From assembly GCA_018364155.1 (NCBI GenBank), contig JAGZMM010000003.1:100225-164224 (forward strand): a DNA stretch of 64,000 nt, read 5' to 3'. The notes under the pieces were generated by a model. The model searched no databases, was not told the DNA's origin, and saw only the letters and a program-made list of their open reading frames with translations. Shown one piece after another: positions 39,864-64,000 of this stretch. A program made the position numbers and the translations under genes. Origin of the DNA: Clostridiales bacterium (GTDB lineage Bacteria; Bacillota; Clostridia; Oscillospirales; Acutalibacteraceae). Position 1 is the stretch's first letter. Every line of letters starts with the position of its first letter.

Positions 39864-40949
39864 TTACAGCTTTTTGCGCAGCTTTCCCGTTAACAGCAAC
39901 AGAATTGGGATTCCCACTCCCATCACCAGATTTACCGGTAAAATCAACTGGGTGTACAGCCGGCGCAGCTCCAGCGTATTGCTGCCGATTGCCAGGGAAA
40001 GCACAAACACCAGGATGGCGAAAACGTTTGCATAAGCATTGGACTTATGGGCACCGGAAAGAAAGCTGGTAAGCTTGAGACACAAGAAAGCCAGAAGGGT
40101 GACGATGACAAAATCTCCCACCGTCAGCGCCGCCACCACGGCCGCCTCCACCCGCTCGATGGTACCGAACAGAGATACGCTCTTTGCTGCGGCAAAGAAT
40201 GGGAAGCTCATCTTGGAAACCGTGTCATGTCCGAACAGCCCCACCGGAATCGCTACCGCCAGCACTAGAAAGGCAGAAAGAACGCCGACGGTGATCAGGC
40301 CCCCTTTTTGGAACCGATGCCGGTCCCGCAGATTGTCCGAGAAAAAGAGGAAAATCACCATGTAACAAAGGATGGCGGTAAAAATCACACCGCCGCCCAG
40401 GACCGGCAGGGTATCCTGCCAGGAAACCGGAGTTAGGTTCTTTGTCTCCACCGATTGGCTCAGCGCTCCATAACAGATCACATAAACCGCCACAATGGCA
40501 AAGAAGAAAAGCGTGCCCGCACGGGCGATGGATTTGAGTCCCAGCTTGACTGTATAAAGGACCGCAAAGAGCATGACCACCAGAAAGACAGCGATGCTCG
40601 TTTCGGTAAAAATGGTGGTGATGATGCGTTCGCCGAACTGACGCAGGTAAAAGGCGCACAGCAAGGTTCCCCACAGCAGATAGAGGACGTTGACCGCCAT
40701 GCCTACCGGCTTGCCAAACACCTGGCAAAACACCTCCGACAGCCCTCGTTCTCCCATGCGCCGTACCAGGTACCCATACAGGAAAAAAAGGGGCAGAAAA
40801 AGAAGGCCGCCTGCCAATGGGATGAGCCAGGAGGCCGTTTTTCCGATGTGCGCGGCTTCCGGTACCAGCAGCGGCAGGGACGGTACCCCCAGAAACAGCA
40901 AAAACAGCACGAACATCTGCCGCACCGACAGGGTATTTTTCTCATTCAT
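39864..40949 (-). CDS. Spore germination protein, GerAB/GerKB family (APC-like permease subunit)
   Basis: 361 aa, about 10 TM segments. N-terminus LSVRQMFVLFLLFLG is typical of B subunits. Confidence 0.85.
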   Translation of the reverse strand: MNEKNTLSVRQMFVLFLLFLGVPSLPLLVPEAAHIGKTASWLIPLAGGLLFLPLFFLYGYLVRRMGERGLSEVFCQVFGKPVGMAVNVLYLLWGTLLCAFYLRQFGERIITTIFTETSIAVFLVVMLFAVLYTVKLGLKSIARAGTLFFFAIVAVYVICYGALSQSVETKNLTPVSWQDTLPVLGGGVIFTAILCYMVIFLFFSDNLRDRHRFQKGGLITVGVLSAFLVLAVAIPVGLFGHDTVSKMSFPFFAAAKSVSLFGTIERVEAAVVAALTVGDFVIVTLLAFLCLKLTSFLSGAHKSNAYANVFAILVFVLSLAIGSNTLELRRLYTQLILPVNLVMGVGIPILLLLTGKLRKKL

Positions 40950-40984
40950 TTCAGCTCACACCTTTATTGAAGCAATGGGGGCAT

Positions 40985-41163
40985 TAGCCCAGCAGCAGAC
41001 GGGTCAGGCTCATTTGCGTGGGGTTGAGGAAATAGGCGACGCCGAGTCCCAGCGCCAGCAAGGCAAAAACCAGATAGGTGATTACCGCCCGCTTTTCCTT
41101 GCCGCAATCCTTCCACAGGTCAAAGGCGGTCACCGCTGCGAGGGTCAACAAAAATATGGTCAT
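40985..41163 (-). CDS. Small two-TM membrane protein, 59 aa, embedded in the germinant receptor operon; not in the ORF track
   Basis: ATG preceded by AGGAGG with a 7-nt spacer. Sequence MTIFLLTLAAVTAFDLWKDCGKEKRAVITYLVFALLALGLGVAYFLNPTQMSLTRLLLG, with two hydrophobic helices. Sits between gerC and gerB. Confidence 0.5.
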
Positions 41164-41183
41164 GGGGTGTTCCTCCTATTTGC

Positions 41184-42389
41184 TCATTCTTCCATGCCGA
41201 GGCCCTGGTTGACCGTATAAAAGCTCAGAATCTGGGATTTCATCTCCACCTTTACCGTCAATGTGGGATAGAGCGTTTCCCACCGGTCTTTCACCCGGTC
41301 CCACCAATCCGGATCGCTGCGGTAGAGATGGTCCGCAAGGCCCAGATAATCCATCCCGTCCGCCTGAGCCTGGGCGATCACTCGTTGCATCTCGTCCTTT
41401 AGCTGGCTGGAAAGATTGTCCTCCAGCTGCTGCATGGTATCCTCGGTAAAGCGCAGCTCCTGGGCCTTGGCGGTTCCATCCAGGCCGACCCGTTCGGTGA
41501 TATTGGCCGCCAGGTCGACTCGGAAGGTGAACGCAGGCTTTCCATCCTCCTCTTGGACGGAAAGGTCCACGCTTGCATTGAGCAACTGGGCCGACAGTTT
41601 TCCGATGTCCTCCACCGACAATACCGCCACTGAGTTTTGAAACCGGCCGGTCAGCAGATTATAGGCCTTTGCCGCGTCCTTTTCCAGGTAGCGCAGCAGC
41701 TTGGTATCTTGGAAGACACCGTACCCCTCTATAGAGATGGTGGCGGCCCCGCCGGTGCCTTCTTCCTTTTTGGCAATGGTCACGGCTGGTAAAATCGGAT
41801 CGAGCGTTTCCTCTTCCGTGGCCTGCACCACCTGGCGCAGTTGGATTTCACTCGAGTAGGACATTTCTCCTGCGTCCAGCAGGAGGGACTGAATGGTTTC
41901 AAAAGAAGTGGCGCCGTCGTCGCTGTTGCAGCGCAGGACTTCTTCCGCTGTCGTCCCCTTGGCCACCACGATATGAAGATTCATACGCATATCCTGGTCA
42001 CGGGTGACAAAATCAATGTATTTGCCCAGATCGTCCCGGGCCGCTTCTTCGCCTACAATGATCAGATCCACCTGCCCCAAGTAAACGGTGTTGCTCATGT
42101 AGGTCTGCGCCTTTTTGAGCGCTTCAAAAAAGGTCCGTCCGTCGCCGATAACCACGTTGTTGATCTCCTCGGTGGATCCTTGCAGGCTTTCCTGGTCCCG
42201 GCTCATGGCCGGGGCAAACGTCACGCGCATGGCATCGTCGGAAAGCTTATCCACTCCGATGGCCTGAACCAGGGTTTTGCGGGTCAGTTCCTCCCGCTGA
42301 GGCAAATTTGTCTTGCTGCCGGCATTTACGGAAAACACCAGGGCAAAGAGGAACAGGCTGCCGATGAGTGCCTTGGTATTTCGTTTCAT
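41184..42389 (-). CDS. Spore germination protein, Ger(x)C family
   Basis: Signal peptide followed by a GerAC-like domain. Start ATG 42387-42389 overlaps the gerA stop (ATGA). Confidence 0.85.
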   Translation of the reverse strand: MKRNTKALIGSLFLFALVFSVNAGSKTNLPQREELTRKTLVQAIGVDKLSDDAMRVTFAPAMSRDQESLQGSTEEINNVVIGDGRTFFEALKKAQTYMSNTVYLGQVDLIIVGEEAARDDLGKYIDFVTRDQDMRMNLHIVVAKGTTAEEVLRCNSDDGATSFETIQSLLLDAGEMSYSSEIQLRQVVQATEEETLDPILPAVTIAKKEEGTGGAATISIEGYGVFQDTKLLRYLEKDAAKAYNLLTGRFQNSVAVLSVEDIGKLSAQLLNASVDLSVQEEDGKPAFTFRVDLAANITERVGLDGTAKAQELRFTEDTMQQLEDNLSSQLKDEMQRVIAQAQADGMDYLGLADHLYRSDPDWWDRVKDRWETLYPTLTVKVEMKSQILSFYTVNQGLGMEE

Positions 42390-43870
42390 CCTTTTGTCCT
42401 CCGCCTTGTCTTGTTCTGATTTCCCAAGAATTCCGGCCGCTTTTGATCCTGCAGGAAGGGGCGGCGGAAATAACTGTCCTTGGTTTTGGTGTGGCCGCCG
42501 ATAATCGGCGCCATATAGGGCACGCCCAGCACCTCCAGGCTGCAAATGCGCAGGGTGAGTAAAATAGCGCCCAGTACCAAGCCCACCAAGCCCAGCACCC
42601 CGCTAAACAGCAACAGCACGAACCGCCATACCCGTACAGCGTTGCTCAAGTCCTGGCTGGGAAGGGTAAAGGACGCGATGGCAGTAATGGCCACCACGAT
42701 GACCACTGCCGGAGAGATGAGCTTTGCGCTGACCGCTGCTTCCCCCACAATCAGCGCCCCCACAATGGACACCGCCTGCCCGATGTTTTTTGGCATGCGA
42801 AGGCCCGCCTCGATAAGCACTTCAAAGGCCACCAGCATGACCACCATTTCAATGAGCTCGTCGAAAGGAACTTCCAGCCGCGCCTTCATAATCGACTGCA
42901 CCAGCCGTGAAGGCAGCATTTCCTGGTGAAAGGACAAAATAGAAACGTAAAAGCCGGGGAGCAACAGCGTCACTCCCATAAGCAAGAACCGCAGCACTCG
43001 GATGGCGGAGGCAAACACCGGATGGCGCGCATAATCCTCAGGTGCCTGCATCTGCTGCAAAATGCTCCCGGGCACCAGCAAAGCGAAGGGGAACCCGTCG
43101 ATGATGATGCCGATGTAGCCTTCGTTGATGTCGGCGCAGAAGGAGTCGGGGCGTTCGGTGTTGGTGACCTGAGGGAAAATGGAATTGTCGTCCCCGCACA
43201 GTGCTTCCTCCACGATGCCCAGGGAAGCGATGGAATCCACGTCCATGCCCAAAAGGCAGTCCTTGGCTTTCTGGACCAAATCCGGATTCGCGGTGTTTTG
43301 CAGATAAACCACAGCGATGTTGGTGTTGGACTGGCGCCCCACCGTCACGGTTTCCACCACGATGTCCGGCGAATGCAGGCGGCTGCGCACTAAGGCGGTG
43401 TTGATGAGCCAGCGTTCTACAAACGCGTCCTTGCCGCCTTTTGTGATGTTTTCATTGGTGGGCTCGGACACGCTTCGCACAAAGGTAGACTTGATTTCAA
43501 AGGTATAGGCTTCGGCGGCGCCGTCGAAAAACAGGGCCGCGCTGCCGGTGAGCATCTGCTTAATAATAACGTCGGCTTCGGTCTGTTTTTTCTGGTCCGG
43601 GCAGTAGATGCCGCCCGAATCGATGTAGGCGTACAGGTCCTCCACCGTAGCATCCGCCTCGAACCGGTGCTCCACCAAAGAACGCATCACCAGCTCGCTC
43701 AATTGCCCGGAATTGATCATCCCGTCGAGAAACACGAACGCGCCCTGAAACCGCTGCCCGATGAGAATGGGCCGCACGCGAAAGTCGCTGTTCTTCTGAA
43801 GCTTTGCGCAGACCTGGTCAAACAGCGGCGTTTTCTTTTGAAAGTGGGCCTTTTTCTGCATATCTTCCAT
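42386..43870 (-). CDS. Spore germination protein, GerAA/GerKA family
   Basis: Soluble N-domain plus a C-terminal 5-6 TM segment block. Start at ATG 43868-43870, which has AGGAAGGG. Track ORF is over-extended to 44077. Confidence 0.85.
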   Translation of the reverse strand: MEDMQKKAHFQKKTPLFDQVCAKLQKNSDFRVRPILIGQRFQGAFVFLDGMINSGQLSELVMRSLVEHRFEADATVEDLYAYIDSGGIYCPDQKKQTEADVIIKQMLTGSAALFFDGAAEAYTFEIKSTFVRSVSEPTNENITKGGKDAFVERWLINTALVRSRLHSPDIVVETVTVGRQSNTNIAVVYLQNTANPDLVQKAKDCLLGMDVDSIASLGIVEEALCGDDNSIFPQVTNTERPDSFCADINEGYIGIIIDGFPFALLVPGSILQQMQAPEDYARHPVFASAIRVLRFLLMGVTLLLPGFYVSILSFHQEMLPSRLVQSIMKARLEVPFDELIEMVVMLVAFEVLIEAGLRMPKNIGQAVSIVGALIVGEAAVSAKLISPAVVIVVAITAIASFTLPSQDLSNAVRVWRFVLLLFSGVLGLVGLVLGAILLTLRICSLEVLGVPYMAPIIGGHTKTKDSYFRRPFLQDQKRPEFLGNQNKTRRRTKG

Positions 43871-44104
43871 GGCCGTCCCTTCCTTTCTATAAAAAAGCGC
43901 CCGCAACCTTTTCCCATTGGCGCATTCTGGTTTTATTGTGCGCGGCTTTCCGGGAAAACATGCATGTTCTTTTACCAAAGCCCCTCCTTTCGGAGCGCGA
44001 AAACTCATTTTTGTGTCCGTTCCTTCCGGCGGCAGTTTCCCGGGAAAACTGGGTCCGACGCTTTTTGCCCTTTTCACAAGCGCCGTCGGCCCCCTAATTT
44101 TGCG

Positions 44105-60142: not shown

Positions 60143-60519
60143 GAATCCGTTTTCCTCCGTTTCAATGGGATGCCGGCTTCTTAGGGACGTAAAGCGCCGG
60201 CCCTTCACCCACTCCTGGGCAATCGCCCCATCCGCCTCATTCGGCCTTATGCTGGCTGGTCTTACCGGGCGTTTCTGTCAGCCTTTCGCGCCATCTCTGC
60301 CCATCCCCGCACCAAGCCGCCCCTGCGCGCAGTCCCCGCTCTTTCCCAGTCACAGGCACCCATGCAAACCAGGGCCTTACGCCAGCACGTTTCGCCGAAA
60401 ACGCGGTACCAAGAATGATCCCAGGGCTTGGAAAGAGGTGGTGCGCTTTTCCGCTTGCTCGGCCTTTCTTTCTCAGGCACTTAGAAAAATCCAGGTAAGA
60501 ACGTGTTCTTACCTGGATG

Positions 60520-61242
60520 CTATCCCTGAGGCTTTTGATTGATTATAGCAATGATTTCTCCCGCCGTCAATCGAGGAACCGGCAAAACCGGTTTGGCCTC
60601 CGGCATCTGTTCGAGATAATGGGCGTCTGAATCAAACAAGATGCGCATATCCTCCAGAATGGGATGAGCCTTCAAGAGGGCGGGCGCGTCTCCCCCGGCG
60701 CTCACCTCTGCCGCCGTAAACTGAGCCTCCGGCGGAATTTCCCCCAAGGAAGCCAGAATACTGAAGCTTTGCCTGTCAATGTGAGCCGGGAAGCAGGCGC
60801 CCCCCAGGCCCCGCACAAGCTGCACCGCCTCGAGAATGGAGTACCGGCAGGAATTGACCAAGAGGATTTCTTCCTCCCCCACCTGCTCGTCGTTTTCATT
60901 GAGAATCCGCTGAGGGCCGAACACCTCCGGACGGTTTCGAATAGGCGGCATCGCCTCATGCACCATCTTTGACAGCCGGAGAGCCCGTTCCAGGTCGGGC
61001 AGCAGGCAAACCAGATGCACGTCCTCCGCCGTTTGCAGCTCCATTCCCGGGATGACCAGAACTCCCGCCTGCTCGCCCACCCTCATGGCAGCCCCGCAGT
61101 TTAAGCAGGAATTGTGGTCAGTCAGGGCGATCACATCGTATCCCTGCAAAGCCGCCATATTCACCAGGTTGTTTGGCGTCATGTCTTCGTCACCGCAGGG
61201 GGATAGAACCGAGTGAATGTGAAAATCGTATTTCGCGTTCAT
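60520..61242 (-). CDS. PHP-domain phosphoesterase
   Basis: N-terminal YDFHIHSVLSPCGD ... ALTDHN PHP metal-binding motifs. Confidence 0.8.
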   Translation of the reverse strand: MNAKYDFHIHSVLSPCGDEDMTPNNLVNMAALQGYDVIALTDHNSCLNCGAAMRVGEQAGVLVIPGMELQTAEDVHLVCLLPDLERALRLSKMVHEAMPPIRNRPEVFGPQRILNENDEQVGEEEILLVNSCRYSILEAVQLVRGLGGACFPAHIDRQSFSILASLGEIPPEAQFTAAEVSAGGDAPALLKAHPILEDMRILFDSDAHYLEQMPEAKPVLPVPRLTAGEIIAIINQKPQG

Positions 61243-61571
61243 GAAAGCAGCTTTCCAATGGCTACCGCCAGGTCATAGGTAGACCGGTCGCTTTGCAGCA
61301 CCGCCACCCCTTCTTCCTCCGCCTTTTGCCGGGCGTCCTCGTCCAGAACGGCGTTTTCCGACAGCAGGATGCACGACACGTCGGCCAGCACCGCCACCGC
61401 GATGGCGTTTAAGTTCCCCATCACGGTGATCCACACGTCGTCCTCCTTGGCCCGGCCCATTACCCAGCTGAGCAGGTCCCCGCAGTAACCTCCCGCCACC
61501 AGGCGCTCCATGCTTTGCCTCCCTGCCAGCACCTTCAGATTCAAAACCGTTGTCATCTGCGCCACCGTCAT
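61239..61571 (-). CDS. DRTGG-domain protein (110 aa)
   Basis: Stand-alone DRTGG fold (VMGRAKEDDVWITVMGNLNAIAVA). 4-nt overlaps on both sides. Confidence 0.8.
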   Translation of the reverse strand: MTVAQMTTVLNLKVLAGRQSMERLVAGGYCGDLLSWVMGRAKEDDVWITVMGNLNAIAVAVLADVSCILLSENAVLDEDARQKAEEEGVAVLQSDRSTYDLAVAIGKLLS

Positions 61572-62899
61572 GGCTCGTTCTCCTCTCCGTCCGGTTCCCG
61601 ATTTTTGGGCAAATAGCCCTCCATTTCAATGAGCTGGTCGGCGATGCGCTGAATTTTTTCCCGCATTTTGAAAATGCAGTCGCTCTCCTTCGCCTCTCCC
61701 AGCACAATGTCCTCCGCCAGCGCCCGGCAGGAGGGCGCCCCGCAGGAGCCGCAGTCAAGCCCCGGCAGCCGGTCGGTAATCTCCTCCACCATGCTCATGC
61801 GCTTCATGGCTTCCTCAATGTTGTCCGCCAGGTTGAGAACCGGCGCAAACTCCAGCTCACCGGTCCATTTCATCTCCTCCGGCACCTGTTTCCCCGGCAG
61901 ATGGTTGCAGGACACCGGCAGATATTTGCGCAACCGCTGGATGCGCGCCTGGGCCACATAAGGGTTCTCCACCGTGAACACGCCGCCCACGCAGCCGCCC
62001 GGGCAGGCATTTAGTTCGATGAAATCCAGCTCGCTTAAGCGTTCGTCCTCCAGGTCCTCAAGCACCTTGATGACGTTTTCAATGCCGTCGGCAGCCAGAT
62101 GCTTTTCGTTTAACAGGGCCGCCGCCTCGCCGCCGATGCCAGCCCAGCTGACCCCGATGATGCCGGAGTTGGAAATGGCCTCCGGCTCCTCCACCTTATT
62201 CATACAGCCCACCAGCTGCGGATAAATCTCGCTGATGGCGATAGCCCCATCCACCGACGACGTCTCAATGCCGATGGGCACCTTGATGTCGGTCACCTTG
62301 GCCGCGCAGGGGGTGATGAAAAAAATCCCGATGTCTTCCGAAGGAAGGCCAGTTTTCTCCATGGCTTCCTTGCGGGCTAAGCGCGCCGCCGTCTCCATGG
62401 GTGCCCGCAGCGGCAGCACATGGGCGCACAAATCCGGGAACCGCACCCGAATCAGGCGCACGATGGCAGGACACGCCGAACTGATGACCGGTTTTAGAAG
62501 CGTCCCCTGTGCCATCAGCCGGCGGGTGGCGTCGGACACCATTTCCGCCCCTCTGGACACCTCGAACACCTCGTCAAAGCCCACCCGCTTGAGCCCGGTG
62601 AGCACAATGTCAATGATGTCCAGATTGTTAAACTGCCCGTATAGCGCCGGGGCGGGCAGGGCGATTTTATACTTGTATGCTTTGATGATGTCCATGGGGT
62701 CGGACTTTGCCTTTTTCGCATGGTAAGGACACACCCGGATGCACACCGAGCAGTCAATGCACCGTTCGGGGGTGATGACCGCCTTGCCGTTTCGCACCCG
62801 GATGGCTTCGGTGGGACATCGCTTGATGCAGTTGGTACAGCCCTTGCATTTCTCTTTATCCAATGTCACCGAATGAAAAAATCGATCCATCGGAATCAC
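61568..62899 (-). CDS. [FeFe]-hydrogenase-like protein (two ferredoxin-type 4Fe-4S motifs, H-cluster domain, extra C-terminal Cys motif); putative sensory/regulatory type
   Basis: CKGCTNCIKRCP and CIDCSVCIRVCP. H-domain motifs SSACP (canonical TSCCP), TPCAAK (canonical MPCxxK) and ELNACPGGCVGG (canonical ExMACxGGC). C-terminal CGSCGAPSC...C. Confidence 0.85.
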   Translation of the reverse strand: MIPMDRFFHSVTLDKEKCKGCTNCIKRCPTEAIRVRNGKAVITPERCIDCSVCIRVCPYHAKKAKSDPMDIIKAYKYKIALPAPALYGQFNNLDIIDIVLTGLKRVGFDEVFEVSRGAEMVSDATRRLMAQGTLLKPVISSACPAIVRLIRVRFPDLCAHVLPLRAPMETAARLARKEAMEKTGLPSEDIGIFFITPCAAKVTDIKVPIGIETSSVDGAIAISEIYPQLVGCMNKVEEPEAISNSGIIGVSWAGIGGEAAALLNEKHLAADGIENVIKVLEDLEDERLSELDFIELNACPGGCVGGVFTVENPYVAQARIQRLRKYLPVSCNHLPGKQVPEEMKWTGELEFAPVLNLADNIEEAMKRMSMVEEITDRLPGLDCGSCGAPSCRALAEDIVLGEAKESDCIFKMREKIQRIADQLIEMEGYLPKNREPDGEENEP

Positions 62900-62924
62900 C
62901 TCGTTTCTCTGGAAAAGGCCTTGC

Positions 62925-63350
62925 TTACTGGACGAGGATCACCATAAACACCTTCGTCCCTTTGCCGATTTCGGTTTCAATGCGCATTTCGTCGGTGTAT
63001 TTCTTGATATTGGGCAGACCCATGCCCGCGCCGAACCCCAAAGAACGCACATGGTCGGGAGCGGTGGACCACCCTTCCTTCATAGCAAGCTCCACGTCCG
63101 GGATGCCCGGTCCATGGTCGGTGAGCACAATGCTGATTTTATCCGGCACGATTTCCACGTCCGCTTCTCCGCCGCCCGCGTGGATCACCATGTTGATCTC
63201 CCCTTCGTACATGGCGATGGCCACCCGCCGGATGGCAGACGGATTAAAACCCATTTGCTTTAGTTTGCGCTTGACTGCGCCGGACGCCTCTCCCGCACGG
63301 GTAAAGTCGTCCCCCGGAACGTCGTAATGCAGGTGTAACGCTTGGCTCAT
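62925..63350 (-). CDS. RsbW/SpoIIAB-like anti-sigma-factor-type serine protein kinase (HATPase_c)
   Basis: 141 aa. G1 box DHGPGI and G2 box GFGAGMG. N box EGEINMVIHAG. Confidence 0.8.
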   Translation of the reverse strand: MSQALHLHYDVPGDDFTRAGEASGAVKRKLKQMGFNPSAIRRVAIAMYEGEINMVIHAGGGEADVEIVPDKISIVLTDHGPGIPDVELAMKEGWSTAPDHVRSLGFGAGMGLPNIKKYTDEMRIETEIGKGTKVFMVILVQ

Positions 63351-63703
63351 TCCTTTTCGCAGCCTCCCCTCAGCCCCCTCTGGTAGAGGCGGCCGCAGGC
63401 GGTGAACATGCGAAACCGCGTTTTGAGCAGCACGATGTCCCGCTCCTTGGCAAGCTCGATGATGGAATCGTCCGGCACTTTGCCGCGTACAAATACAATA
63501 CAGTGCATCTCCATCATGTCCGCCGTGCGCACCACCTGGGGGTTGACCAGCCCCGTCAGCAGCACCGACTGGTCCTTGACAAAGGCCAGCACATCGCTCA
63601 TCATATCGCTGCCGCAGGCAGTATGCACCTCGGCGTCAAGCCCCGTTTCGCTGGCCCAAATAATGTCGGCCTCCAGGATTTCCATAATATCGCGAACATT
63701 CAT
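63347..63703 (-). CDS. DRTGG-domain protein (second copy)
   Basis: Start at ATG 63701-63703 (MNVRDIMEIL), which has GGGAGGAAG 7 nt upstream. Track ORF runs to 63805. Confidence 0.75.
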   Translation of the reverse strand: MNVRDIMEILEADIIWASETGLDAEVHTACGSDMMSDVLAFVKDQSVLLTGLVNPQVVRTADMMEMHCIVFVRGKVPDDSIIELAKERDIVLLKTRFRMFTACGRLYQRGLRGGCEKE

Positions 63704-63813
63704 ACAGCTTCCTCCCATTTCAGTTGCCTTGGACAAAATCGGTCGCCGGGCTCTCGTGCCGACTGGTGGCAGCAGGCCGCACAAATATTGCCAGCCTGCT
63801 TCCATATAAGTAT

Positions 63814-63843
63814 ATTTATTATAGCATTCCTTCCAGCCTTATG
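63814..63843 (-). promoter_or_regulatory. Candidate sigma-A promoter for the DRTGG/kinase/hydrogenase-like operon
   Basis: Minus-strand TTTGCA, 18 nt spacer, TATAAT. Confidence 0.4.
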
Positions 63844-64000
63844 CAAACCCCATCGCCGCCTTTCATACAAATTTCCATTTTATTTTGCAAAAATCATAGG
63901 CAAATCCTACATCTTTGTTATTTTTATGACAATAGGGCCAAAAACATTGGAAAATGGATTGACGAAAGATGCCGAAACCGATAAAATGATAAGTAATATC

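What the first reader, a model, noticed from the sequence alone, without database searches (positions are those of the whole stretch)
60520..63843. Five-gene overlapping operon: DRTGG / RsbW-like kinase / [FeFe]-hydrogenase-like / DRTGG / PHP phosphoesterase, a putative H2- or redox-sensing regulatory module
Four of the five minus-strand genes overlap their neighbour by 4 nt; the remaining junction has a 25-nt gap. This implies co-translation and strict stoichiometry. A hydrogenase-like protein sits between a partner-switching-type serine kinase and a PHP phosphatase, which looks like a signalling cassette rather than an H2-producing enzyme. It resembles the poorly characterised sensory (group C/D) [FeFe] hydrogenase neighbourhoods. 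Here, though, the hydrogenase-like protein lacks a PAS domain and is flanked by two stand-alone DRTGG proteins of unknown function. The output target and the role of the DRTGG pair are open questions.
Basis: partly seen in the sequence, partly recalled or inferred. Interest (0 to 1): 0.85.

Follow-up and report, generated by a model that had tools for sequence, protein, structure and literature searches.

The report
Group D hydrogen-sensor hydrogenase gene cassette
This is an ordinary copy of a widespread five-gene cassette built around a "group D" sensory-type iron hydrogenase; the family has been known since about 2010, but how it signals is still unknown.

Summary
Five co-directional minus-strand genes (60520-63703) encode DRTGG-A, a SpoIIAB-like GHKL kinase, an [FeFe]-hydrogenase-like protein, DRTGG-B and a PHP phosphoesterase. 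Three junctions are ATGA overlaps. The fourth is a 34-nt spacer, or 25 nt from an unlikely GTG start. A promoter-like site and a strong terminator bracket the unit.

The hydrogenase-like protein carries every published hallmark of group D (M2e) putative sensory hydrogenases such as TamHydS. Lacking PAS and being flanked by DRTGG proteins is the standard group D layout, not a deviation. All five genes occur in 74 of 80 related species loci, in the same order in 73, and also in distant Thermovenabulum.

In 48 of 59 determinable loci the bifurcating hydrogenase HydABC is adjacent. Here it is not; about a fifth of relatives are likewise unlinked.

New comparative points:
- DRTGG-A/kinase and DRTGG-B/PHP are tightly coupled gene pairs.
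- DRTGG-A is naturally fused to the kinase in Thermovenabulum, where rex precedes the operon.
- DRTGG is not STAS-like.
- The PHP profile resembles nucleotide and nucleic-acid phosphoesterases, not known PHP protein phosphatases.

Verdict: new member of a known, functionally unresolved kind. Moderate interest.

The parts
63915..63932 (.). Rex-operator-like inverted repeat TTGTCATAAAAATAACAA in the divergent serC / cassette intergenic region. A lead only.
   Evidence: Read from the sequence. Similar boxes lie within 320 nt upstream of g1 in 8 of 78 loci, against about 2 expected. Thermovenabulum has a perfect box plus a rex gene at the head of the same operon.
63818..63847 (-). Sigma-70-type promoter-like site (TTTGCA-18-TATAAT with an upstream TG).
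   Evidence: 10 of 12 matches. It lies about 110 nt upstream of the g1 ATG. Not shown experimentally.
63347..63703 (-). g1, DRTGG-A (118 aa), a stand-alone DRTGG-domain protein.
62925..63350 (-). g2, SpoIIAB-like GHKL serine-kinase-type ATPase (141 aa).
   Evidence: HATPase_c 39.1 bits and HATPase_c_2 38 bits. Best solved relative is SpoIIAB 1til, 3.6e-7. N box (E49, N53, H57), G1 (D78xGxG82) and G2 (G105-L112) are at least 90% conserved.
61568..62890 (-). g3, group D (M2e) [FeFe]-hydrogenase, a HydS orthologue (440 aa).
   Evidence: Fer4x2 + Fe_hyd_lg_C 108 bits + FeS PF04060 51 bits. Motifs SSACP, ITPCAAK, ELNACPGGCVGG and Cx2Cx4Cx16C. About 51-54% identical to TamHydS.
61239..61571 (-). g4, DRTGG-B (110 aa), a paralogue of g1.
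   Evidence: Pfam DRTGG 28.8 bits. hhalign against the g1 family gives probability 97%. AF2 pLDDT 95; Foldseek hits the CBS-PPase DRTGG domain, AF1212 and the HPrK N-terminal domain.
60520..61242 (-). g5, PHP-family metal-dependent phosphoesterase (240 aa).
   Evidence: Pfam PHP 41.1 bits. H8, H10, D42, H43, E68, H76, H154, D206 and H208 are conserved. The profile's best solved relatives are Rnm, EndoQ and TrpH-type enzymes.
60481..60518 (-). Intrinsic terminator: 13-bp stem, 4-nt loop, T-run.
   Evidence: It starts 2 nt after the g5 stop codon.

Best explanation
The locus is the regulatory cassette of a group D (M2e) [FeFe]-hydrogenase. The organism is Solibaculum intestinale or a very close relative, a human-gut member of the Oscillospiraceae.

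Proposed working:
1. HydS binds H2 at an H-cluster whose proton relay is disabled (Cys299 to Ala, Met353 to Thr). It therefore turns over slowly and dwells in reduced states. This is shown for the orthologue TamHydS, not here.
2. That state is passed by protein contact to two enzyme modules, each built on a DRTGG paralogue. One is DRTGG-A with the SpoIIAB-like kinase. The other is DRTGG-B with the PHP phosphoesterase. The pairing is inferred from gene coupling and from a natural fusion.
3. The two modules write and erase a phosphoryl mark, on a DRTGG protein or on an external target. This step is inferred.
4. The output tunes the electron-bifurcating hydrogenase HydABC and the NADH/ferredoxin redox regulon, possibly together with Rex. 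This step is inferred. In this genome the target is encoded elsewhere.
For: Identity of g3:
- All four H-cluster cysteines are present, and there are two N-terminal CxxCxxCxxxCP motifs.
- It has Ala at the Cys299 position; the best PDB hit is actually the DdHydAB C178A variant 8rxj.
- It has Thr at Met353 and Asn at Met497, a C-terminal Cx2Cx4Cx16C motif and no PAS domain.
- These are the signatures Land et al. 2020 give for M2e/group D (PMC8163306).
- It is about 51-54% identical to TamHydS.

Published behaviour of TamHydS: high H2 affinity, low turnover, CO tolerance, stabilised Hred and H2-induced structural change. This is read as sensor-like (PMC8163306 and PMC13104023).

Conservation:
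- At least 573 species loci hold a relative.
- All five genes occur in 74 of 80 loci, in order in 73, and in Thermovenabulum at 39-52% identity.
- HydC-HATPase2-Fd-HydB-HydA lies directly downstream in 38 loci and divergently upstream in 10.
- This matches the spacing of Cthe_0335, TTE0887 and Athe_1292 from HydABC in Carere 2012.

Pairing of the modules:
- g1/g2 overlap in 62/79 loci. g4/g5 overlap in 41/74, with 24 more within 40 nt. g2/g3 almost never overlap, 1 of 79.
- A DRTGG-A::kinase fusion occurs in Thermovenabulum (WP_424906316.1 and at least nine contigs) and in a second lineage.

Enzymes look active: the kinase ATP-binding boxes and the PHP metal ligands are conserved.

Rex link: rex heads the Thermovenabulum operon behind a perfect Rex box. 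A Rex-like box lies upstream here.
Against: - H2 sensing has not been demonstrated for any group D enzyme. TamHydS still catalyses reversible H2 turnover. Its C-terminal cluster does not respond to H2 (PMC13104023).
- No phosphorylation of any cassette protein is known.
- The PHP profile resembles nucleotide and nucleic-acid phosphoesterases rather than PHP protein phosphatases.
- DRTGG is not STAS-like. A fused DRTGG-A::kinase argues against DRTGG-A being a dissociable, switch-type substrate.
- No DNA-binding protein or sigma factor is conserved next to the cassette.
- In this genome no HydABC, HydEFG or rex lies within the 64-kb window, so the target is unidentified.
Confidence: 0.5

Rival explanations
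1. Nucleotide-signal model. The PHP protein hydrolyses a nucleotide or short RNA (pAp, nanoRNA, a dinucleoside polyphosphate or a cyclic nucleotide). The DRTGG proteins are nucleotide-responsive adaptors, as in CBS-DRTGG pyrophosphatases. g2 acts as an ATP-binding switch rather than a protein kinase. HydS would couple H2 or redox state to the level of a small-molecule signal.
For: The PHP family profile best matches Rnm 5'-3' exoribonuclease (7ug9, 2e-8), EndoQ, 9etk, 3e0f and the pAp phosphatase Cv1693. No CpsB/YwqE-type protein phosphatase appears. NCBIfam's nearest families are nucleoside bisphosphate phosphatase and RNase RNM. In family II pyrophosphatases, only DRTGG-containing forms respond to diadenosine polyphosphates (bioRxiv 10.1101/2020.04.07.028951).
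Against: The matches are weak, cover only the N-terminal 90 or so residues, and are far below family cut-offs. In CBS-PPases the nucleotides bind the CBS domains, not DRTGG. No nucleotide cyclase or synthase is conserved in the neighbourhood. The kinase keeps a complete SpoIIAB-like catalytic motif set.
Confidence: 0.2
2. Accessory-subunit model. The cassette does not sense H2 as a signal. Instead it is a post-translational control or electron-input module of the bifurcating hydrogenase. HydS would act as a low-rate hydrogenase or redox gauge, reading ferredoxin or NADH poise through its FeS chain. The kinase and phosphoesterase would adjust HydABC activity or assembly directly.
For: The cassette is physically contiguous with HydC-HATPase2-Fd-HydB-HydA in 48 of 59 determinable loci, with a second HATPase embedded in HydABC. 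TamHydS is catalytically competent and reversible (PMC8163306). No transcription factor is conserved in the cassette.
Against: Eleven of 59 determinable species, plus this one, keep an intact cassette with no HydABC within 6 kb on either side. Here it has its own promoter-like site and terminator. As far as I recall, the solved HydABC complexes that share this HydA (7q4v, 8a6t, 7p5h) contain no HydS, DRTGG or PHP subunits; the entries were not inspected. The disabled proton pathway is conserved in 81 of 81 sequences, which is a poor design for catalysis.
Confidence: 0.2
3. Classical anti-sigma partner switch. g2 sequesters a sigma factor encoded elsewhere, DRTGG-A plays the anti-anti-sigma role, and PHP resets it.
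For: g2's best solved and NCBIfam relatives are the anti-sigma F factor SpoIIAB and RsbW. The gene order of small partner, kinase, third protein and phosphoesterase mirrors rsbV-rsbW-sigB-rsbX (my recollection of that operon, not tested here).
Against: No sigma-factor gene is conserved in the 80 neighbourhoods, and none was found among the annotated window ORFs. DRTGG is structurally unrelated to STAS. DRTGG-A is covalently fused to the kinase in Thermovenabulum, which is incompatible with release-type switching. g2 scores far below the SpoIIAB and RsbW equivalog cut-offs, 51 against 135 bits.
Confidence: 0.05

Closest known systems
Group D (M2e) putative sensory [FeFe]-hydrogenase TamHydS of Thermoanaerobacter mathranii and its gene cluster (Land et al. 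2020, PMC8163306; Schumann et al. 2026, PMC13104023). Also Cthe_0335, TTE0887, Athe_1292, Csac_1857 and Cphy_3798 (Carere et al. 2012, PMC3561251).
   Same: Same domain architecture: 2x[4Fe-4S], H-domain, then a Cx2Cx4Cx16C domain, with no PAS. Same active-site substitutions: Cys299 to Ala and Met353 to a hydroxyl residue. About 51-54% identity. A histidine-kinase-like ATPase sits next door. The family is usually upstream of HydABC.
   Different: Here the cassette is unlinked from HydABC, with its own terminator and serC/serA divergent upstream. The host is a mesophilic gut organism. Met353 is Thr (57 of 81 relatives) rather than the Ser of TamHydS, and Met497 is Asn rather than Leu. [quoted passage not shown]
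Group C (M2f) sensory [FeFe]-hydrogenases: TmHydS of Thermotoga maritima, HydS of Ruminococcus albus, HfsB of Thermoanaerobacterium saccharolyticum.
   Same: Same N-terminal FeS domain, an H-domain with a disrupted proton pathway, and the C-terminal four-Cys cluster. They are encoded next to Ser/Thr kinase and phosphatase genes and hydrogenases. Genetic evidence for a regulatory role exists for hfsB (PMC5707799).
   Different: Group C carries a C-terminal PAS domain. From memory, it pairs with PP2C-type phosphatases; this was not checked here. This protein ends 35 residues after the last cluster cysteine, and its partners are DRTGG proteins and a PHP enzyme.
Partner-switching modules SpoIIAA-SpoIIAB-SpoIIE and RsbV-RsbW-RsbU/X.
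   Same: A small GHKL serine kinase of about 140 aa with N, G1 and G2 boxes. A small partner gene overlaps the kinase gene just upstream. A hydrolase is encoded in the same unit.
   Different: There is no STAS domain, no PP2C phosphatase and no sigma factor. The small partner has the DRTGG fold and can be fused to the kinase.
Regulatory [NiFe]-hydrogenase HoxBC with HoxJ/HoxA of Cupriavidus necator.
   Same: The concept is shared: a slow, inhibitor-tolerant hydrogenase reports H2 to a kinase that controls hydrogenase expression (summarised in PMC5707799 and PMC8163306).
   Different: It uses an unrelated metal centre and unrelated proteins. HoxJ is a PAS histidine kinase with a response regulator. 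Here no response regulator or DNA-binding output is encoded.

Membership tests
Group D (M2e) [FeFe]-hydrogenase (HydS) | H-domain with the four H-cluster-ligating cysteines (CpI C300, C355, C499, C503) | tested here: met
   Fe_hyd_lg_C scores 108 bits. C140, C195, C296 and C300 align to the ligands and are invariant in 81 of 81 orthologues.
Group D (M2e) [FeFe]-hydrogenase (HydS) | [quoted passage not shown] | tested here: met
   C15xxC18xxC21xxxC25P and C44xxC47xxC50xxxC54P are present. Multiple Fer4 families score above cut-off.
Group D (M2e) [FeFe]-hydrogenase (HydS) | Proton-relay Cys299 not conserved; Met353 replaced by Ser or Thr | tested here: met
   SSACP gives Ala139. The best PDB hit is the DdHydAB C178A variant. 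ITPCAAK gives Thr193. Among orthologues, Ala occurs in 81 of 81, Thr in 57 and Ser in 24. The criteria come from PMC8163306.
Group D (M2e) [FeFe]-hydrogenase (HydS) | C-terminal Cx2Cx4Cx16C cluster motif and no PAS domain | tested here: met
   The sequence reads DC380GSC383GAPSC388, then 16 residues, then DC405. PF04060 FeS scores 51 bits. There is no PAS hit, and the protein ends at residue 440.
Group D (M2e) [FeFe]-hydrogenase (HydS) | Sequence relationship to the characterised member TamHydS | tested here: met
   tblastn against the TamHydS coding sequence taken from the SI of PMC13104023 gives 51% identity over residues 4-309 and 54% over 381-428. The sequence was machine-read and contains frame errors, so these values are approximate. 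No phylogenetic tree was built.
Group D (M2e) [FeFe]-hydrogenase (HydS) | Often encoded upstream of a bifurcating HydABC (a frequent association, not strictly defining) | tested here: not met
   No HydA, HydB or HydC lies in the 64-kb window or in the 9 kb beyond it. The association is met in 48 of 59 determinable related loci.
Group D (M2e) [FeFe]-hydrogenase (HydS) | H-cluster incorporation, high H2 affinity, low turnover | not testable with these tools
   This needs protein biochemistry. It is known only for TamHydS (PMC8163306).
Group C (M2f) sensory [FeFe]-hydrogenase | C-terminal PAS domain after the four-Cys cluster | tested here: not met
   Pfam finds no PAS domain. Only 35 poorly conserved residues follow the last cysteine.
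SpoIIAB/RsbW partner-switching module | GHKL serine kinase with N, G1 and G2 boxes | tested here: met
   HATPase_c and HATPase_c_2 score above cut-off. SpoIIAB 1til matches at 3.6e-7. The boxes are at least 90% conserved. However, g2 scores 51 bits against the 135-bit cut-off of the SpoIIAB equivalog.
SpoIIAB/RsbW partner-switching module | STAS-domain antagonist as kinase substrate | tested here: not met
SpoIIAB/RsbW partner-switching module | PP2C phosphatase and a sigma-factor target | tested here: not met
   The hydrolase is PHP, not PP2C. No sigma gene is conserved in the 80 neighbourhoods, and none was found among the annotated window ORFs.
PHP phosphoesterase superfamily (PF02811) | Conserved His/Asp/Glu metal ligands (HxH, DH, E, H, H, DxH) | tested here: met
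   H8, H10, D42, H43, E68, H76, H154, D206 and H208 are invariant or nearly so.
PHP-type protein phosphatases (CpsB/YwqE) | Sequence affinity to that subfamily | tested here: not met
   A profile search of the PDB returns Rnm, EndoQ, TrpH-like proteins, Cv1693, TM0559 and the PolC PHP domain only. Activity on phosphoprotein is untested.
DRTGG domain (PF07085) | Pfam match above the gathering score, and the DRTGG fold | tested here: met
   The scores are 30.5 and 28.8 bits against 25.2. The two families are paralogous, with hhalign probability 97%.

The most novel reading that the evidence does not exclude
The five proteins form a previously undescribed type of H2-responsive signalling machine in which DRTGG domains take the place of STAS or PAS as coupling modules. 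DRTGG-A would tether a SpoIIAB-like kinase to the HydS sensor, and DRTGG-B would tether a PHP phosphoesterase. The invariant Ser in the conserved, flexible D-[ML]-[ML]-S loop (Ser36 in g1, Ser35 in g4), or an external protein such as Rex or a HydABC subunit, would be the phospho-switch. That would give a non-canonical partner switch that controls fermentative redox balance in hundreds of gut and rumen Clostridia.
Probability: 0.25. Interest if true: 0.7.

Novelty: new member of a known kind. Interest (0 to 1): 0.35.

Why it matters
Group D [FeFe]-hydrogenases are one of the last functionally undefined hydrogenase groups. They sit next to the electron-bifurcating hydrogenase that sets H2 output in many fermenters of the gut, the rumen and biofuel research. 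How they signal is unknown.

This locus does not change that picture, because it is a standard copy. The comparative work done here does sharpen the question:
- The unit of function is five genes, not HydS alone.
- It splits into a DRTGG-A/kinase pair and a DRTGG-B/PHP pair.
- The first pair is covalently fused in one lineage.
- Rex is co-operonic in that lineage.
- The 'phosphatase' may not be a protein phosphatase.

The host appears to be Solibaculum intestinale, whose type strain is a deposited human isolate. Its cassette is unlinked from HydABC, so trans-acting output could in principle be studied there.

Tried and rejected
- Catalytic hydrogenase or maturase genes nearby. tblastn with HydA, HydB and HydC from a relative hit only g3 in the window. 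Pfam annotation of almost all window ORFs found no HydABC, HydEFG, sigma factor or Rex.
- An Fe-S site in DRTGG-A. Three cysteines (C30, C68, C103) are near-invariant, but the fourth (C115) is not. This is unresolved and is probably core packing.
- A riboswitch or leader structure. Rfam finds nothing in 60300-64000. The leader fold is no better than shuffles, z = -0.16.
- Other conserved neighbours. All-against-all clustering of flanking ORFs found only serC/serA, in 27 loci, beyond HydABC.
- An apparent oddity, the TSCSPGW motif in the neighbouring HydA of relatives. It is the same in the solved HydA1 7q4v, so it is ordinary.
- Other long hits to the DRTGG-A profile (ArgJ, Peptidase_M3, SPOR). 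These carry truncated or unrelated DRTGG segments and were set aside as chimeras or unrelated architectures.
- Whether the host genome has HydABC, HydEFG or rex elsewhere.
- Literature. 18 open-access papers mention DRTGG, and none does so in a hydrogenase context. Searches on locus tags of the model-organism cassettes found only catalogue-type mentions.

Full report
**1. What is in the sequence**

Five co-directional genes lie on the minus strand between 60520 and 63703.

- g1: 63347-63703, 118 aa
- g2: 62925-63350, 141 aa
- g3: 61568-62890, 440 aa
- g4: 61239-61571, 110 aa
- g5: 60520-61242, 240 aa

Six metagenome assemblies that carry identical proteins call exactly these genes. That includes the 118-aa form of g1 and the 440-aa ATG-start form of g3.

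g1/g2, g3/g4 and g4/g5 share ATGA overlaps. g2 and g3 are separated by 34 nt, with GAGG 8 nt before the ATG.

A promoter-like site (TTTGCA-18-TATAAT with TG, 63847-63818) precedes g1. A 13-bp hairpin with a T-run (60518-60489) follows g5. The unit therefore looks like a self-contained operon.

All predicted Pfam domains are found above their gathering scores: DRTGG twice, HATPase_c, Fer4x2 + Fe_hyd_lg_C + FeS (PF04060), and PHP.

**2. What the hydrogenase-like protein is**

Aligned to solved [FeFe]-hydrogenases, g3 keeps the four H-cluster cysteines but reads SSACP where prototypical enzymes read TSCCP. The best PDB match is the engineered C178A variant of DdHydAB.

It has ITPCAAK, so Met353 is Thr. 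It has ELNACPGGCVGG, so Met497 is Asn. It has two N-terminal CxxCxxCxxxCP motifs, a C-terminal DCGSCGAPSC-x16-DC motif (Cx2Cx4Cx16C), and no PAS domain.

Land et al. 2020 define the M2e subclass, group D, by exactly these features (PMC8163306). The aspartates before the first and last C-terminal cysteines are the conserved ones noted by Schumann et al. 2026 (PMC13104023).

Against the machine-read TamHydS coding sequence in that paper's SI, g3 is about 51-54% identical. All these positions are fixed in 81 orthologues.

g3 is therefore a HydS orthologue of group D. This group was catalogued in 2010-2012 (Carere 2012, PMC3561251). It has been characterised biochemically since 2019. Greening's 2024 survey still calls it functionally undefined (PMC11216029).

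**3. Organism and spread**

g1 is 100% identical to a protein that NCBI assigns to Solibaculum intestinale. That species is a cultured human faecal isolate with a 2.81 Mb genome at 54.6% G+C (PMC12056005). The nearest species-representative genome locus is an uncultured Eubacteriales MAG, at 98% identity.

HydS relatives number at least 8000 clusters at E < 1e-20. They occur in at least 573 species-representative genomes.

**4. Neighbourhood comparison**

I searched the six-frame ORFs of 80 species loci with the five window proteins and with HydC, HATPase2, Fd, HydB and HydA from locus L012.

- All five cassette genes are present in 74 of 80 loci.
- The order is g1-g2-g3-g4-g5 in 73 of those; in L044 g5 lies upstream of g1.
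- Of the six loci lacking a gene, four are on truncated contigs and two (L055, L056) lack only g5.

The electron-bifurcating hydrogenase block HydC-HATPase2-Fd-HydB-HydA was placed as follows:

| Position of HydABC | Loci |
|---|---|
| Directly downstream | 38 |
| Divergent upstream | 10 |
| Absent within 6 kb on both sides | 11 |
| Undetermined | 21 |

The window belongs to the unlinked minority. No HydA, HydB or HydC lies in the 64-kb window. Upstream are divergent serC and serA, then a variable integrase-bearing element. Downstream are DUF2726, FUSC/HAD, an acyl-CoA synthetase and housekeeping genes.

The spacing in the linked loci matches the locus-tag spacing of M2e genes from HydABC in A. 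thermocellus, Caldanaerobacter, Caldicellulosiruptor and C. phytofermentans.

**5. Internal structure of the cassette**

Junction statistics:

| Junction | Overlapping | Other |
|---|---|---|
| g1/g2 | 62 of 79 (48 by exactly 4 nt) | |
| g4/g5 | 41 of 74 | 24 more lie within 40 nt |
| g2/g3 | 1 of 79 | |
| g3/g4 | 22 of 77 | variable |

The cassette thus consists of two tightly coupled pairs around HydS.

An exhaustive profile search with the g1 family found 1989 clusters at 50% identity. Two of them hold a 270-275-aa protein in which DRTGG-A is fused to the HATPase domain. One of these is present in NCBI Thermovenabulum MAGs and in at least nine independent contigs.

Its locus reads rex, fusion, HydS, DRTGG-B, PHP, HydC, HATPase2, Fd, HydB, HydA, RnfC, RnfD. 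rex overlaps the fusion gene by 4 nt, and a perfect Rex box lies upstream. The window proteins are 39-52% identical to these.

The fusion and the coupling argue that DRTGG-A is a constitutive partner of the kinase, not a releasable substrate.

**6. The individual proteins**

*g2.* It is nearest to SpoIIAB (1til, 3.6e-7) and then RsbW, but scores far below either equivalog cut-off. Its N, G1 and G2 boxes and an N-terminal G-x-DFTRAGEAS motif are conserved.

*g1 and g4.* They are paralogues, with hhalign probability 97%. AF2 models (pLDDT 82 and 95) match AF1212, the DRTGG insert of CBS-pyrophosphatase and the N-terminal domain of HPr kinase. They do not match STAS.

In g1, residues 29-75 are almost invariant across 80 species. 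Yet residues 33-41 (DMMSDVLAF) are the least confident part of the model. The equivalent GDLLS segment is also the weakest part of g4.

Ser36 in g1 and Ser35 in g4 are invariant. A conserved but flexible loop suits an interface or a modification site. It is also a general DRTGG motif, so this is only a lead.

JGI's names for these proteins are 'predicted transcriptional regulator' and 'serine kinase of HPr protein'. I take these to be annotation carry-over, since neither protein has an HTH or a kinase domain.

*g5.* It keeps all PHP metal ligands. Its family profile best matches Rnm exoribonuclease, EndoQ, TrpH-like phosphoesterases and the pAp phosphatase Cv1693. It does not match the PHP protein-tyrosine phosphatases. 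Calling it 'the phosphatase of the kinase' is therefore an assumption.

**7. Mechanism**

I commit to an H2 or redox sensor model:

1. HydS reports the signal through its reduced-state dwell. This is shown for TamHydS only.
2. The signal passes to a DRTGG-A/kinase module and a DRTGG-B/PHP module.
3. Together these set a phosphoryl mark.
4. The mark controls the bifurcating hydrogenase and the redox regulon, possibly with Rex.

Only step 1 has experimental support, and only in an orthologue. Steps 2-4 are inferred from synteny, coupling, the fusion and motif conservation.

The report sections set out three rivals with their tests:
- a nucleotide-signal version, prompted by the PHP affinities;
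- a post-translational accessory-subunit role in HydABC;
- a classical anti-sigma switch.

**8. Novelty and score**

The locus is a new member of a known kind. That family already includes genetically tractable thermophiles.

The added value here is the comparative anatomy in sections 4-6. I score interest at 0.35.

Noticed in passing
window 63915-63932: Rex-operator-like inverted repeat TTGTCATAAAAATAACAA between the cassette and the divergent serC gene. Similar boxes occur upstream of g1 in 8 of 78 related loci, against about 2 expected. No rex gene lies in the window.
   Followed up: partly
L087 9372-20813 (also L088, L089), Thermovenabulum-type contigs: A single co-directional gene array: rex, a DRTGG-A::kinase fusion, HydS, DRTGG-B, PHP, HydC, HATPase2, Fd, HydB, HydA, RnfC and RnfD. 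rex overlaps the fusion gene by 4 nt, and a perfect Rex box TTGTTAAAAATTTAACAA lies about 100 nt upstream.
   Followed up: partly
beyond the window end; L002 6514-8807 and 26 other loci: serC (Aminotran_5) and serA (2-Hacid_dh) are divergently transcribed immediately upstream of the cassette in 27 of the related loci, including this species. This may be conserved synteny or a redox (NAD+) link; it is unexplained.
   Followed up: partly
window 60542-60570 (minus strand): The strongest promoter-like match in the region (TTGACG-17-TATAAT with TG, 11 of 12) lies inside the 3' end of g5, just before the terminator. It is probably a chance match.
   Followed up: no
window g5 residue 12 (about 61207-61209): The PHP motif HSCLSPCGD has Cys at position 12 in 71 of 75 orthologues, but this species has Val. 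Cys16 and Cys79 are invariant. The role of these cysteines next to the metal site is unknown.
   Followed up: no
window g1 residues C30, C68, C103 (63347-63703): DRTGG-A has three near-invariant cysteines, and DRTGG-B has one at the equivalent of C68. A fourth, C-terminal Cys (C115) is variable. They could be core packing or a redox or metal site.
   Followed up: partly
L001-L005, about 5-10 kb beyond the window end: An integrase with ParB, NikA-like and relaxase or AAA_25 genes lies upstream of comEA. The gene content varies between metagenome samples of the same species, which suggests an integrated mobile element.
   Followed up: no
L012 13601-14167 and the equivalent position in 48 loci: A second, roughly 185-aa HATPase_c protein is embedded between HydC and the small 2Fe-2S ferredoxin of the HydABC block. 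Its relation to the cassette kinase g2 was not examined.
   Followed up: no
window 39864-44077: A spore-germination receptor operon (GerA, GerAC and Spore_permease families). A SASP gene is called in the part of the related contigs that corresponds to the window. Both suggest a spore-forming host.
   Followed up: no
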